Part shown: piece after piece, positions 10,380 through 16,802 of the stretch
Numbering within the stretch: position 1 is the first letter of the stretch
How the letters are laid out: every line of letters begins with the position of its first letter
From: Octopus sinensis
Lineage: Eukaryota
DNA: 33,565 nucleotides
NCBI RefSeq assembly: GCF_006345805.1
Contig: NW_021831982.1
Coordinates: 1 to 33,565, forward strand
Direction: 5' to 3'
Notes under the pieces: model-generated
What the model saw: only the letters and a program-made list of their open reading frames with translations
Databases searched by the model: none
What the model was told of the DNA's origin: nothing
Made by a program: the position numbers and the translations under genes

Positions 10380-10525
10380 TAGAAATATTATTATTTCTAA
10401 GTCTCTCTAAAGGAGACTACGGCAGCGGTACTGGATATAAATAATTATCACCAAGCTAACATGGCTGTCCAGGAAAATAGGACGAATGCTGCCATTGATT
10501 AGCTCCAAACTACCGTCGCCTCTAG
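10380..10525 (-). repeat. Partial copy of the non-coding element at 12026-12340
   Basis: Direct repeat of 12026-12171 (AGAAATATTATTATTTCTAA...CCAAGCTAAC...GATTAGCTCCAA...GCCTCTAG). Confidence 0.9.
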
Positions 10526-10567
10526 CGTACTATTTTCCTGTACTGCCATGTTAGCTTGGCGATAACT

Positions 10568-10598
10568 ATTATTATTATCATTATTATTATTATTATTA

Positions 10599-10629
<31 letters not shown>

Positions 10630-10630
10630 C

Positions 10631-10661
<31 letters not shown>

Positions 10662-10663
10662 AT

Positions 10664-10730
<67 letters not shown>
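10568..10730. repeat. (ATT)n-(TA)n-(GATA)n compound microsatellite
   Basis: Direct reading. Confidence 0.97.
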
Positions 10731-10731
<1 letters not shown>

Positions 10732-10739
10732 GAAAGTTG

Positions 10740-11395
10740 GTTTGTGAAAGCACGTGGGTGAATATATAGAAAAAAGTAAAGAGTGAAAAAACTACAGAAG
10801 GCTTAAATGTTAAAAAATATATATATTTGCGTCCATATGTCTGAATAATATTAGAAAATTAAAAAAAAAAATTTTTTCTCTTATAATGACATAATTTAAA
10901 AGAAAGACCGGTTTCGCGTGTAGCTTTTCAAATTTCTTGCGACGTTATGTTTATGTTGAATAGAGTTTTCGTTATGTTTATGTTCAGGAGAGTTCTAAAT
11001 AAGGGAAGGTAGTGAGTGATTTCTTCCGGTGTAAGGGAGATAATCGCTTAAAATTTTTTTCCTTTCCCTTGGTGTGAATTTCTCTGTATTAGTATGTTCG
11101 GATGGTTGAGTCTGGGCTTGTATTTTTCAATGAAGAATGTTTCCTTGTTTAGTCTAATTTGTGTTGATGATCCGAAAGCACATTGGTAAAATGGAAAGAT
11201 TAAAAATTGTGGTAGTAGTTGCTTTGCGCATTTTTCAATGTGCTCACTAAAAGGTATCATTCTATATTCTGGGAATGCAATCTGTTGTCGATGCAGTGTG
11301 CATCTACGTCTGAGTGATAGTCCCGTGGAACCCACGTAGTCTTGGTGGCAGCCCGAGCTCTTTATGACATAAATTATGTTTTCAGAGGCACAGGT
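10740..11395 (-). mobile_element. Penelope-like element 3' part: GIY-YIG endonuclease plus 3' UTR/pLTR
   Basis: CASENIIYVIKSSGCHQDYVGSTGLSLRRRCTLHRQQI...SEHIEKC...RLNKETFFIEKYKPRLN is a GIY-YIG domain of PLE type. A hammerhead motif lies downstream. Confidence 0.9.
10889..10950 (-). ncRNA. Type I hammerhead ribozyme, U3:A8 core variant
   Basis: ACATAA..AAGAAA-T-TTGAAAA-GC(TACAC)GC-GAAAC-CG-GTC|TTTCTT..TTATGT. Confidence 0.75.
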
Positions 11396-11693
11396 CTGCC
11401 AAAATTCATAAAAGTCAAATTATAAATGAAACCATTAAAAAATCACCAAAGACATACATACATACACCTAACCCGGGGGACCTAAAACTACGACCCATTG
11501 TAGCTGGCCCAACCTGTGAAACACACAGACTAAGTCTACTTATGGACATCCTCCTGAAACCCTTCCTTAAACATATCGATAGCCATATCAGAGATGACTT
11601 AGATATGTTAAACCACCTTCCAAAAAAAGCCAAGGAAGAAACAATCCTGGTTTCATTTGATGTAGTTAACTTATATACCAGTATACCTCATAA
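11393..11693 (+). mobile_element. Penelope-like element reverse transcriptase N-terminal fragment (inverted)
   Basis: GLP/KIHKS...DLKLRPIVAGPTCETHRLSLLMDILLKPFL...ILVSFDVVNLYTSIPH are PLE RT motifs. Confidence 0.9.
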
Positions 11694-11699
11694 TACCTC

Positions 11700-13203: not shown

Positions 13204-13507
13204 ACAGTATTCGTTTTTGCTTCGATAAAATGGCAAAATTGTGGGTGTTAAGTTCCCATGGAGGGGTCTTTCTAACTTGTAAGAAGATGAAATTTTATAA
13301 ATATTACTTCATGTGTGTCTAATATCTATGGTTAAAATTCCATCAACAGCAAAAATATATGAATTGTCATGGGGGTTATGGCCCTTATACGTAGAACATA
13401 ATTATACGTAGAACAATTTCATAAAGATTCATTCAGTACTTTTGACCTAGTTTTGGATCATAAAAGAAATGACTAAAATTTCGGAGTTAAGGCTCCCATT
13501 AGAGTGC

Positions 13508-13652
<145 letters not shown>

Positions 13653-13687
13653 CACACACATACAAAGATAAATTGATAGATACAACT

Positions 13688-14002
<315 letters not shown>

Positions 14003-14009
14003 ATATATA

Positions 14010-16694
14010 TTGTTGTTGGCATCCTTTTTGTCTCGGGAGACAATGGAGTTGCGCATAAAATAATCTGGTCCGGCTTTTACATTTCATGTCCTAATACACC
14101 TTCTGCTGTGGCTGTGTAGTCCTATCCTGAAAAAACACTCCCTCTGGCAGGTGCCGCAAATGTAGCGAAGACTTTGCCTGGCTGGTTGTAATGCCATAGT
14201 TTCTTGTTGACGTCTTTTCTTGTCTTTCTATTTCTCATCTCTCTCTATGTCACTCCTTTGTGTTCCCTCTTTTACGGTACGTCGCCAATCTCCACGGTTG
14301 CTGGTAACTGCTTCCCAGTTGCTAATATTGATGTTGCAGGCCTTCATGTCCCTTTTGCAAACATCCGTGTAACGTAAGAATGGTCTTCGCACAGACCTAG
14401 TGCCCCTAGCAAGCTCTCCGAAGAGTATGTCCATGGGGATTCTGCCATCTTCCATACGGCTAACATGTCCAAGCCATCTCATACGTCTTTGTGTGAGGAG
14501 TGCAAACATGCTTGGTATTCTTGCTTGCTTGAAGACATCTTTGTTGGGGACATGATTCTGCCATTTGATGCGAAGTATTTTCTAGAGGAAGCGCAGGTGA
14601 AAGATATTTAGGCGACGCTCCTGGCGTGTGTATGGCGTCCAAGTCTCACTTCCATACAGAGTGCTAAGTACACATGCCTGGTAAATTTCCATTTTTGTCA
14701 GCTTATTGTTGTCCCATGCCTGTTTGGAGAGTTGGGCCATCGCAGCAGCTGCCTTGCCAATGCGTATATTGAGCTCAGCATCAAGTGATATGTTGTAGGT
14801 GACGGTAGAGCCAAGATAGGTAAACTTCTCCACCTCCTGTAATCTGCGGTCTCCAATATGTATGTTTGGGATGTCCGATGTAGCCCGACCCATGATGTTG
14901 GTATTCTTGAGGCTGATAACTAAGCCAAAATCGTTACATGCTTGCTCAAAACAGTTGATGAGCTTTGTAGGGCTTCTTCTGTGTATGATACCAGAGCGGC
15001 ATCATCAGCAAATAGCATCTCCTTGATCAAGATGCTTCTGATTTTGGTCTTGACACGCAGGCGCGAGAGTTTTCCGTCACTTCTACTGTGCAGAAACACT
15101 CCATCATCTGATGTCTGAAAGGCATGTGAGAGCAGCAGCGAGAAGAAGATGCCAAATAATGTAGGAGCAAGGACACAACCTTGCTTTACCCCGTTTTTTA
15201 TTTGGAAGGCGGCTGATGTGGAACCATTATGCTGAATGGTGCCTTGCATATCATCATGGAAAGATTTGATGATCCTCAGCAGCTTTGGTGGACATTCGAT
15301 TTTTTGGATTCGGATGAAGAGGCATTTTCTACTTACCAAGTCAAAGGCCTTTGTCCGATCAATGAAGTCCATGTATAAAGGCATTTTCTGCTCTCTAGAC
15401 TTCTCCTGAAGTTGGCGTATGGAGAATATCATATCAATAGTTGATCTGCTTCTTCTAAAGCCACACTGCGTTTCTGGATAAATTCGAGAAGCAAGCAGTT
15501 GTAGCCTGGACAGGATAACGCGAGCAAAGACCTTTCCAACAGTGCTTAGAAGAGATATCCCATGGTAATTGTTACAATCACCACAGTCACCTTTGTTTTT
15601 GTAAAGCGTAATGATGTTAGCATCCCTCATATCCTGAGGGACTCTACCCTCCTCCCAGCACTGACACAGAAGCTCATGAAGGTGCCGAAGCACGATGGTG
15701 TTTTTGCCGGTTTTGATAATCCCTAAGGGGATGCCGTCTTTTCCCGGAACCTTGTTACTTGCTAGGGAGTCAATAACCTTGGTGAGCTCTGCTATAGATG
15801 GCAGACTGTCAAGTTCACACATGACTGGCAAGATCTTGACACCCTCTATTGCAGCCTCAGCAACCGTGGTCTCCCGTGAGTAGAGATCCTGGTAGTACTC
15901 CACCCATCTATCCATTTGCTTGCTTTGGTCCTTGATGAGATCTCCAGTAGTTGATTTCAGAAGGGCTGACTTGGTTGCGGATGGGCCGAGGGCCTTCTTC
16001 AAACCGGCATACATCCCACGGGTGTCGCCACTGTCAGCAGCTAACTGGATACTCTGATAGATTTCCTGCCAATACCTATTTGCACAGCCTGTGGCAGTCA
16101 GTTGGGTTTTATTTCTTGCCTTTCTGAGTTCTTCGAGTGACTTTGTAGAAGAATTACTCTTGTATTGCATCAGAGCAGCACGCTTTGCTTCGATAACTGT
16201 TTCTAGCTCTGAGAGCCCAGCACTGAACCAATCTGGGTTTTGCCTTTCTCTCATGCCGAAAATATCTATTGATGTGGTATACAAAGCTTCCCTGATATAA
16301 TTCCACCTACTTTCAGCAGAGGAGGTTGGGCAGCTACTGAGGGCAACCATGATAGAAACAGCAAAACATTTTCGCATTGTAGGGTCCGAGGTTCTGGCAG
16401 TGTTAATGCGTGGTCGGCCCATTTTCTTGGAGTGATAGACTTTTTTAGGTAGAATCCTCACCCTGCTACCTATTAGTGAATGATCTGTGTCACAATCCGC
16501 GATGTGGTAACTACGGCTCAGTTGAACAGAATTCAGAAAGGATCTTCGTGTAATGAGATCCAGCTGATGCCAGTGGTGAGATCTTGGATGTCTCCAAGAT
16601 GCCTTGTGGGATGTCTTTTTGGCAAAGAATGTGTTGGTGATGCACAGGTTATGGTATGTGCAAAAGTCAAGTAGTCTCTGACCATTGTCATTCA
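14010..16694 (-). mobile_element. RTE-clade LINE, 5'-truncated, ORF disrupted by frameshifts and a stop
   Basis: APE end (NDNGQRLL, SWRHPRSHHWHQLD, DCDTDH), RT (PGKDGIP, YKNKGD, QCGFR, KAFD, GVKQGCVLAPTLF, LFADD, FTYLGS), C-terminal RMRWLGHV and CGTCQRECFFRIGLHSH, (CAA)n tail. Confidence 0.95.
14920..16693 (-). pseudogene. Longest open segment of the RTE endonuclease/reverse transcriptase ORF
   Basis: 599-aa ORF whose first residues come from flanking microsatellite. It continues in other frames at 14582-14893 and 14228-14509. Confidence 0.9.
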
Positions 16695-16802
16695 AACACA
16701 TACACTTACATATATACATACATATATATATATATATATACGATTGATTTGTTTCAGTTGCTGTCTACGAAATCCTTACACACACACACACACACACACA
16801 AA

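What the first reader, a model, noticed from the sequence alone, without database searches (positions are those of the whole stretch)
10889..10950. Penelope 3' UTR hammerhead with compensatory U3:A8 core
Seen on the minus strand, about 100 nt after the GIY-YIG stop: stem I AAGAAA/UUUCUU plus distal ACAUAA/UUAUGU across an internal loop, core UUGAAAA, 2-bp stem II GC/GC, then GAAAC-CG-GUC. Established: C3 and G8 form a Watson-Crick pair in the active hammerhead and U3:A8 is a tolerated compensatory swap. Canonical CUGANGA searches would miss it. Inference: a functional variant rather than decay, since both positions changed together.
Basis: partly seen in the sequence, partly recalled or inferred. 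Interest (0 to 1): 0.75.

Follow-up and report, generated by a model that had tools for sequence, protein, structure and literature searches.

The report
Penelope-element minimal hammerhead, U3:A8 core
This is a copy of the small hammerhead RNA motif carried in the tail of a very abundant Penelope-like jumping gene; its U-A core pair in place of C-G is fixed in the family and was already described for such elements in 2014, so it is a new example of a known kind, and whether it still cuts itself is untested.

Summary
The motif is in the sequence as described (minus strand, 10938-10900; distal pairing out to 10950/10889), 98-110 nt after the stop of a GIY-YIG reading frame. It lies in a 634-bp, 5'-truncated 3' fragment of a Penelope-like element (PLE).

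- **Missed detail:** one extra U lies between stem I and position 3.
- **U3:A8 is a family trait.** All 34 distinct close copies examined have it. So do 27 of 32 copies of an older subfamily, which has a clean 7-bp stem I and no extra U.
- **Sister families support the fold.** Two sister PLE families carry, in the 3' UTR on the coding strand, the same 2-bp stem II and GAAACCGGUC. Their core is A3:U8, and stem I differs from the older subfamily on both sides in 4 of 6 pairs. No copy of these families had CUGANGA (0 of 122).
- **Not new.** U3-A8 covariation in PLE minimal hammerheads was published in 2014 (PMC4209133), and this scan has met it in other genomes.
- **Doubts about this copy.** The window's subfamily has lost nucleotide 1.1, the distal helix is not supported, Rfam finds nothing, and cleavage could not be tested.

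Verdict: a real, conserved, hammerhead-derived motif and a new member of a known kind. This copy is an inert fragment.

The parts
10900..10938 (-). 39-nt hammerhead-type motif: stem I 5' strand 10938-10933, extra U 10932, core U3-A9 10931-10925, stem II G-C/C-G 10924-10923 with 10917-10916, loop II 10922-10918, G12-A15.1 10915-10912, palindromic CCGG 10911-10908, U16.1 10907, C17 10906, stem I 3' strand 10905-10900
   Evidence: Sequence; parse; only hit of the relaxed descriptor in the window; identical in 26 of 34 distinct close genomic copies
10905..10906 (-). Predicted cleavage site, 3' of C17 (between 10906 and 10905 on the minus strand)
   Evidence: Inferred from hammerhead numbering applied to the sequence; not tested
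10931..10931 (-). Position 3 = U (canonical C)
   Evidence: no variant at 10% or more in contigs of four public runs
10926..10926 (-). Position 8 = A (canonical G)
10932..10932 (-). Extra unpaired U between stem I and position 3; in the older subfamily it is U2.1 paired with an A1.1 that this subfamily lacks
   Evidence: (loose ends at 10906)
10889..10950 (-).
   Evidence: Present in the sequence and in the MFE fold, but not beyond chance and not conserved in sister families
10762..11395 (-). 5'-truncated 3'-terminal fragment (634 bp) of the Penelope-like element: end of the GIY-YIG domain plus 3' UTR
   Evidence: Shared with 29 other loci of the genome at about 87-98% identity (most 93-98%); more than 2,000 first-look candidates
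11048..11419 (-). Open frame with a GIY-YIG-like endonuclease domain (C-terminus of the PLE protein), stop codon at 11048-11050
   Evidence: full-length relatives with RT plus GIY-YIG in L061 and L062
11481..11694 (+). Piece of the same element family's RT N-terminal region on the opposite strand (rearranged or inverted insertion)

Best explanation
The motif is the minimal type-I hammerhead motif of a young, abundant Penelope-like retrotransposon family, with the core C3-G8 pair replaced by U3-A8, and it would likely act, if at all, as a weak self-cleaving RNA that needs two copies to pair.

**Shown**
- The motif has every hammerhead core base except positions 3 and 8: U4 G5 A6 A9 G10.1-C11.1 G12 A13 A14 A15.1 U16.1 C17.
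- Helix III is the palindrome ACCGGU.
- It sits about 100 nt after the RT/GIY-YIG reading frame.
- It is fixed in its family.
- Sister families keep the same architecture while stem I and the 3:8 pair change on both sides.

**Inferred**
- Two transcripts, or two copies in one transcript, would pair their ACCGGU segments into a 6-bp helix III. Each core would then cut after C17 (10906/10905), trimming element transcripts, probably slowly and with help from the element's protein, as reported for other PLE hammerheads.
- The window's subfamily has lost nucleotide 1.1, which leaves a bulged U beside the core. Its activity is therefore likely lower than that of the older subfamily.
- The copy in the window is a 5'-truncated insertion with no function of its own.
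For: **Anatomy and chance**
- Anatomy read from the sequence.
- 1 site against 0.035 expected.

**Element context**
- GIY-YIG frame.
- Relatives in L061 and L062 that span RT plus GIY-YIG (frames interrupted in both), each with an upstream inverted 3' fragment.

**Family fixation**
- 34 of 34 distinct close copies have U3:A8, and 26 of 34 are identical over the 39 nt.
- 126 exact 33-mers in the genome. Of the 100 listed, 98 are UUGAAAA, 2 are CUGAAAA (one inverted pair) and 0 have G8.
- The older subfamily F1a has 426 exact 19-mers and a 7-bp stem I with no bulge. 27 of its 32 copies read UUGAAAA.

**Sister families**
- F2 has 31 of 32 copies and F3 17 of 24 copies with AUGAAUA (A3:U8). Both keep GC-loop-GC and GAAACCGGUC.
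- F1a against F2: 4 of 6 stem I pairs are changed on both sides. F2 against F3: one more G-C to A-U change.
- The endonuclease regions of F1 and F2 are 58% identical over 95 aa.
- GCGAAACCGGUC is the longest identical block in the 3' UTR alignment of the four lineages.
- A more distant PLE family (48% identity in the endonuclease region) also has U3:A8, with a 5-bp helix II and palindromic CAUG.

**Other runs**
- Contigs of four public runs carrying four organism labels show no variant at 10% or more at 10931 or 10926, while loop II (10920) varies.

**Literature**
- U3-A8 covariation, dimer architecture and low in vitro activity of PLE hammerheads: PMC4209133 (text parts 1-2 read).
- Dimer model: PMC6765202 (passages).
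- A PLE hammerhead that cut only with protein added, with a C3G/G8C double mutant as partial rescue: PMC11167929 (passages).
Against: - No cleavage data of any kind. Only assembled contigs were on offer, no raw RNA reads.
- Rfam gives no match even at E <= 10.
- The fold is not more stable than shuffles.
- Helix II is only 2 bp with no unpaired base after A9. Published PLE minimal hammerheads have 6-8 bp and that extra base.
- The window's subfamily has an extra U beside position 3 because nucleotide 1.1 is missing. Yet it has at least 126 dispersed copies. Either the bulge is tolerated, or cleavage is not needed for spreading.
- In the one PLE tested in vitro, hammerhead mutants did not affect insertion, and no RNA-seq reads ended at the cut site (PMC11167929).
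- The lineages that give the covariation are few: F1, F2/F3 and family A.
Confidence: 0.6

Rival explanations
1. The motif is a hammerhead-derived structured element that is kept in the master copies but no longer cleaves, at least in the window's subfamily. It would serve instead as a fold recognised by the element's RT/EN protein, or as another 3' UTR signal.
For: - The subfamily that lost nucleotide 1.1 and has the bulged U still made at least 126 dispersed copies, the sampled ones 97-100% alike.
- Helix II is only 2 bp.
- PLE hammerheads have very low activity in vitro.
- In Anolis PAc, hammerhead mutants did not change insertion in vitro, and cleavage needed protein.
Against: - All invariant catalytic bases (U4 G5 A6 A9 G12 A13 A14 A15.1 U16.1 H17) are kept in four lineages whose 3' UTRs otherwise barely align.
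- The 3:8 pair stays Watson-Crick through a double change. That is expected for catalysis-related constraint and is not required for a mere binding site.
- Natural hammerheads with inserted bases before position 3 (2a, 2b) are cited as variants presumed active (PMC7151607, passages).
Confidence: 0.32
2. It is neutral decay of a once-canonical hammerhead: two independent transitions (C3 to U, G8 to A) that happen to restore pairing, with no selection.
For: - Both changes are transitions.
- All copies of one family inherit them from one master, so fixation within the family says nothing about selection.
Against: - Sister families have A:U, which needs transversions on both sides, and a third family has U:A again.
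- Stem I covaries and the other core bases are intact in every lineage.
- Unpaired combinations occur only in single decayed copies: 2 GUGAAAA of 32, 1 GUGAAUA of 32, and 1 CUGAAUA of 24 among others.
Confidence: 0.05
3. It is a chance resemblance to a hammerhead in AT-rich sequence.
For: - The descriptor is loose: 7 of 200 shuffled windows give one hit.
- The fold energy is no better than shuffles.
- No Rfam match.
Against: - It sits at the place where PLEs are known to carry hammerheads.
- It is conserved across lineages, with compensatory changes.
Confidence: 0.03

Closest known systems
Minimal hammerheads (min-HHRs) of metazoan Penelope-like elements, U3-A8 variant of the Cercyon elements of Schistosoma mansoni (Cervera and De la Pena 2014, PMC4209133)
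   Same: Type-I topology; location in the terminal repeat / 3' region of a PLE with RT and GIY-YIG; tiny palindromic helix III that implies action as a dimer; G10.1-C11.1 kept; U3-A8 in place of C3-G8; copies often paired on opposite strands a few hundred bases apart.
   Different: Helix II here is 2 bp (GC/GC with a 4-5 nt loop), not 6-8 bp. There is no unpaired base between A9 and G10.1. Stem I is 6-7 bp, not 4-5 bp. The window's subfamily has an extra U before position 3.
Small hammerhead variants of PLEs that cleave as dimers (Lunse, Weinberg and Breaker, RNA Biol 2017; seen only as a reference and through a review, PMC6765202; the paper itself is not held)
   Same: Short or absent stem III, PLE association and the dimer mechanism, as summarised in the review.
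   Different: I could not check which core variants that paper lists.
Canonical type-I hammerhead in about 359-nt tandem repeats of the same genome (CUGACGA-GAGG..CCUC-GAAACCGGUC)
   Same: Identical GAAACCGGUC helix III segment and type-I layout.
   Different: C3:G8 core, 4-bp helix II, GC-rich unrelated flanks, short tandem units instead of a coding element. Homology to the PLE motif is not shown.
Poseidon PAc hammerhead of Anolis carolinensis (PMC11167929)
   Same: A PLE hammerhead whose 3:8 pair was shown by mutation to need pairing, with C3G/G8C as a partial rescue. Its cleavage was seen only with the element's protein.
   Different: Canonical C3-G8. It overlaps the start of the ORF rather than lying after the stop.

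Membership tests
Hammerhead ribozyme (type I) | Order stem I - 7-nt core - stem II hairpin - GAAA - stem III - U H - stem I, with open stem I | tested here: met
   Sequence parse. One extra U lies between stem I and the core in this subfamily; the older subfamily F1a has none.
Hammerhead ribozyme (type I) | Invariant core bases U4 G5 A6 A9 G12 A13 A14 A15.1 U16.1 and H17 | tested here: met
   All present in the window and in F1a, F2, F3 and family A.
Hammerhead ribozyme (type I) | C3 and G8 | tested here: not met
   U3 and A8. A Watson-Crick replacement, reported before for PLE hammerheads.
Hammerhead ribozyme (type I) | Match to the Rfam covariance models (Hammerhead_1 and relatives) | tested here: not met
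   No match at gathering score in the whole window, nor at E <= 10 in 10800-11050. Canonical hammerheads elsewhere in the genome do match RF00163.
Hammerhead ribozyme (type I) | Site-specific self-cleavage 3' of H17 | not testable with these tools
   Only contigs were available, no raw RNA reads.
PLE minimal hammerhead (min-HHR, Cervera and De la Pena 2014) | Lies in the terminal repeat / 3' region of an element with RT and GIY-YIG | tested here: met
PLE minimal hammerhead (min-HHR, Cervera and De la Pena 2014) | Minimal, palindromic helix III (positions 15.2-16.2 and loop 3) allowing a dimer | tested here: met
   ACCGGU is its own reverse complement. Co-folding two copies predicts the intermolecular ACCGGU helix only for F3 and gives other pairings for the rest, so this prediction is weak.
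PLE minimal hammerhead (min-HHR, Cervera and De la Pena 2014) | G10.1-C11.1 pair | tested here: met
PLE minimal hammerhead (min-HHR, Cervera and De la Pena 2014) | Long helix II (6-8 bp) and an unpaired base between A9 and G10.1 | tested here: not met
   Helix II is 2 bp and there is no extra base. Family A of the same genome has 5 bp.
PLE minimal hammerhead (min-HHR, Cervera and De la Pena 2014) | Consensus families with covariation and compensatory changes | tested here: met
   F1a against F2: 4 of 6 stem I pairs changed on both sides. 3:8 is U:A against A:U. F2 against F3: G-C to A-U.

The most novel reading that the evidence does not exclude
In this PLE lineage the hammerhead has shrunk to about 37-40 nt with a 2-bp helix II. 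Its 3:8 core pair has switched between U:A and A:U in sister families that each made over a thousand candidate copies. That would be natural evidence that any Watson-Crick pair serves at 3:8. A natural A3:U8 hammerhead was not found in print in my searches (0 papers; the library is incomplete). In addition, the window's subfamily lost nucleotide 1.1 and still spread to at least 126 places, which would mean that hammerhead cleavage is dispensable for PLE transposition in vivo.
Probability: 0.25. Interest if true: 0.5.

Novelty: new member of a known kind. Interest (0 to 1): 0.3.

Why it matters
For the finding as given, it matters little. U3-A8 hammerheads in Penelope-like elements have been in print since 2014, and this scan has already met them in several other genomes.

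The comparison made here has some value for ribozyme specialists:
- One genome holds sister element families with U:A, A:U and, in a separate repeat, C:G at the 3:8 pair.
- These families have an unusually short 2-bp helix II.
- There is a natural pair of subfamilies with and without nucleotide 1.1.

Together these are ready-made natural variants for testing how much of the hammerhead core a retrotransposon really needs.

Tried and rejected
- **Rfam:** searches of the window and of the region found nothing.
- **Stability:** single-strand folding shows no special stability. Co-folding two copies gave the expected intermolecular ACCGGU helix only for F3. Thermodynamics is uninformative for these AU-rich stems.
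- **A first script timed out** and was replaced by a BLAST-based one.
- **Canonical Hammerhead_1 hits in the genome** have no PLE reading frame like ours within 1.5 kb (0 tblastn hits in 30 loci), so they gave no homologous comparison.
- **Same motif context with C/G at both 3 and 8:** the pattern found 2 sites, both G3/G8 and neither C:G. One of them led to family F3.
- **MAFFT** misaligned the 5' halves of the short motifs, so pairs were counted from a structure-anchored parse instead.
- **RNA evidence:** no RNA holder was listed and all runs are contigs. The laid contigs show no joints and no places where molecules begin or end. Nothing can be said on expression or cleavage.
- **Loose ends at 10906** in the contigs looked at first like a break at the cut site. 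They turned out to be the subfamily with an extra A.
- **Distal helix:** not beyond chance.
- **Literature:** Lunse et al. 2017 is not held. The 2026 preprint on animal retrozymes says nothing on core variants. Searches for 'A3-U8' and 'C3U'/'G8A' gave nothing on natural A3:U8 hammerheads.
- **Earlier notes of the scan:** none for this genome.

Full report
**1. The observation**

On the minus strand the window reads ACAUAA-CGUCGC-AAGAAA-U-UUGAAAA-GC-UACAC-GC-GAAA-CCGG-UC-UUUCUU-UUAAA-UUAUGU, from 10950 to 10889.

One detail was left out. A U at 10932 lies between the AAGAAA strand of stem I and the UUGAAAA core. AAGAAA/UUUCUU pairs as 6 bp only if this U is skipped; without the skip the register fails.

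In hammerhead numbering the motif is: U3 (10931), U4, G5, A6, A7, A8 (10926), A9, G10.1-C11.1, C10.2-G11.2, loop II UACAC, G12 A13 A14 A15.1, CCGG, U16.1, C17 (10906). The predicted cut lies between 10906 and 10905.

A relaxed descriptor asked for any Watson-Crick 3:8 pair, helix II of at least 2 bp, a palindromic helix III, and stem I of at least 5 bp with at most one skipped base. It finds exactly this one site in the window on both strands. Dinucleotide shuffles give 0.035 sites on average, and 7 of 200 shuffles have a hit. So the motif alone is only modestly unlikely.

The fold is not unusually stable: -6.4 kcal/mol, z = 0.43. Rfam reports nothing at gathering scores, nor at E <= 10 in 10800-11050.

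**2. Surroundings**

The frame 11048-11419 on the minus strand carries a GIY-YIG-like domain. It matches PF01541 at E 0.003 and 18.3 bits, below the curated 22.6. Its stop lies 98-110 nt upstream of the motif.

The stretch 10762-11395 is repeated in the window's own 2.7-Gb genome. A 201-nt query gave more than 2,000 first-look candidates, and the 40 scored were 97-100% identical.

Relatives in L061 and L062 that span the whole coding region show reading-frame pieces with reverse-transcriptase motifs followed by the GIY-YIG domain, on the order of 700-800 aa in all and interrupted in both copies. Upstream of each lies a 5'-truncated 3' fragment on the opposite strand. This layout matches published Penelope-like elements (PLEs), including the pairs of hammerheads on opposite strands a few hundred bases apart (PMC4209133).

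In the window only the 634-bp 3' fragment is present (minus strand), next to a short RT piece on the plus strand at 11481-11694. The copy is a dead fragment.

**3. Is U3/A8 a property of the family?**

Yes.
- All 34 distinct genomic copies recovered around the best matches have U3:A8, and 26 of 34 are identical over the 39-nt motif. This sample is biased toward copies close to the window.
- A 33-letter pattern that leaves positions 3 (C/U) and 8 (A/G) open matches 126 places. Of the 100 listed, 98 read UUGAAAA, 2 read CUGAAAA (one inverted pair, so one event), and none has G8.
- Contigs of four public runs under four organism labels cover the motif. They show no variant at 10% or more at 10931 or 10926, while loop II (10920) and flanking bases do vary. 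Contigs drop rare variants, so this is weak support.

**4. The extra U is a derived loss**

Loose ends at 10906 in the laid contigs pointed to copies that read GGUC-AUUUCUU rather than GGUC-UUUCUU. That 19-mer occurs 426 times.

In these copies (F1a) stem I is AAGAAAU/AUUUCUU, 7 bp, directly abutting U3 with no bulge. 27 of 32 distinct copies have UUGAAAA.

The window's subfamily (F1b) therefore lacks nucleotide 1.1. Its partner U2.1 is left unpaired beside the core.

F1b nevertheless has at least 126 dispersed copies, the sampled ones near-identical to each other. Either the bulge is tolerated or cleavage is not needed for spreading. Natural hammerheads with inserted bases before position 3 (2a, 2b) are cited in PMC7151607 (passages).

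**5. Sister families, the real test**

A Pfam GIY-YIG search of the genome gave 5,029 candidates, of which 150 were scored and 30 loci fetched. These showed several PLE families. I scanned the 30 loci on both strands for hammerhead shapes without constraining positions 3 and 8.

- **F2.** One locus, whose endonuclease region is 58% identical to ours over 95 aa, carries UGUAUC-AUGAAUA-GC-GAUU-GC-GAAA-CCGG-UC-GAUACA about 290 nt after its stop. This family has 1,261 candidates, and 31 of 32 distinct copies read AUGAAUA, that is A3:U8.
- **F3.** A third family with 3,248 candidates has AUAUC-AUGAAUA-GC-GAAA-GC-GAAACCGGUC-GAUAU. 17 of 24 copies read AUGAAUA, and the rest carry single mutations.
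- **Compensatory changes.** F1a against F2 differ on both sides in 4 of 6 stem I pairs (U-A/C-G, A-U/U-A, A-U/U-A, A-U/U-A) and in the 3:8 pair (U:A/A:U). F2 against F3 differ by G-C/A-U at one more pair.
- **Conserved block.** Outside the motif the four 3' UTRs barely align. GCGAAACCGGUC is the longest identical block.
- **Family A.** The most common PLE family among the fetched loci (48% identical endonuclease region) has AUUU-UUGAUAA-GGUUC...GAACC-GAAA-CAUG-UA-AAAU. This is U3:A8 again, and closer to the published minimal type (5 loci).
- **No canonical core.** Among the 122 copies counted (34 + 32 + 32 + 24) none has CUGANGA. Unpaired 3/8 states appear only as scattered single copies.

Two caveats apply. 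The independent lineages are few. The copies for searches were collected with anchors that require an intact 3' half.

**6. A canonical relative in the same genome**

The pattern CUGANGA...GAAACCGGUC finds 118 sites, against 14 for the reversed control. Most belong to one repeat, CUGACGA-GAGG-loop-CCUC-GAAACCGGUC. It occurs in head-to-tail units about 355-360 nt apart and in inverted pairs. Its flanks are GC-rich and unlike the PLE 3' UTRs, so homology is not shown. It resembles the short tandem hammerhead repeats called non-LTR retrozymes in the literature (abstracts of PMC7229834 and of the 2026 preprint).

**7. How it most likely works**

- **Shown:** the anatomy, the position in the element, fixation in the family, and covariation between families.
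- **From the literature:**
  - PLE hammerheads have a minimal palindromic helix III, are thought to act as dimers, and cleave poorly in vitro (PMC4209133; PMC6765202).
  - In the Anolis PAc element cleavage was seen only with the element's protein. The single mutants C3G and G8C abolished it and the double mutant partly restored it. Hammerhead mutants did not alter insertion in vitro, and no RNA-seq reads ended at the cut site (PMC11167929).
- **Inferred for this element:** two ACCGGU segments pair into a 6-bp helix III, and each core cuts after C17 to process element transcripts. Activity is weak and probably protein-assisted. It is likely weaker still in F1b because of the bulged U and the 2-bp helix II.

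I put about 0.6 on a catalytic role for the lineage and about 0.3 on a kept but non-cleaving structure. Decay and chance take very little.

**8. Comparison with what is known, and novelty**

The closest known thing is the U3-A8 variant of PLE minimal hammerheads. It was described for Cercyon elements of Schistosoma mansoni, with about 1,300 hits (PMC4209133). My search for 'U3-A8' with 'hammerhead' returns only that paper.

Differences here are the 2-bp helix II, the absence of the unpaired base after A9, a longer stem I, and the lost nucleotide 1.1 in this subfamily.

Earlier notes of this scan list the same kind of U3:A8 PLE hammerhead among 9 notes from at least 5 genomes, the 8 shown all on other genomes and most filed as a known kind. 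I did not test those notes.

The finding is therefore a new member of a known kind. The A3:U8 families are the least expected item. I found no paper with 'A3-U8' and 'hammerhead', but the library lacks Lunse et al. 2017 and most subscription journals. I did not see the supplements of the 2014 paper. No claim of novelty in print can be made.

**9. Verdict**

Interest 0.3.

Noticed in passing
L081:2066-2102 (+), L094:1581-1617 (+), L174:1565-1601 (-); families F2 and F3 of the same genome: Two abundant sister PLE families carry the same tiny hammerhead shape with A3:U8 (AUGAAUA) rather than U3:A8 or C3:G8: 31 of 32 and 17 of 24 copies. I found no natural A3:U8 hammerhead in the paper library.
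   Followed up: partly
L144:1480-1519 (+) and 426 exact sites genome-wide: An older subfamily of the window's element has an A after the cut site, giving a clean 7-bp stem I. The window's subfamily lost this base yet still has at least 126 copies.
   Followed up: yes
L070:2358-2402 (+), also L079, L083, L084, L085: The commonest PLE family among the fetched loci has a more typical minimal hammerhead (5-bp helix II, palindromic CAUG, 4-bp stem I), also with a U3:A8 core (UUGAUAA). It lies about 570-600 nt after its reading frame.
   Followed up: partly
L213:1495-1537 (+); e.g. G000:C4:158033903-158034647: A canonical hammerhead (CUGACGA, 4-bp helix II, same GAAACCGGUC) sits in head-to-tail repeats about 355-360 nt apart and in inverted pairs. 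It looks like the short tandem hammerhead repeats called retrozymes.
   Followed up: partly
L031-L060 (e.g. L035, L040, L042): Another abundant canonical type-I hammerhead family (GUAC-CUGAAGA-GACCC..GGGUC-GAAA-CAUGUG-UC-GUAC) is followed by AAUAAA. It matches Rfam RF00163, 8 sites over the cut-off. No PLE reading frame like ours lies within 1.5 kb.
   Followed up: partly
window 10943-10985 (-): A 15-nt direct repeat AACAUAAACAUAACG occurs twice, 27 nt apart, just upstream of the motif.
   Followed up: no
window 10522-10760 and 13473-14083: Long (TATC)n / (TA)n microsatellites flank the element fragment. The repeat family's similarity ends at 10762 in most copies but runs on to about 10576-10700 in some.
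   Followed up: no
window 14228-16764 (-): A long open frame (614 aa plus adjoining pieces) has reverse-transcriptase-like sequence of a different, LINE-like retrotransposon.
   Followed up: no
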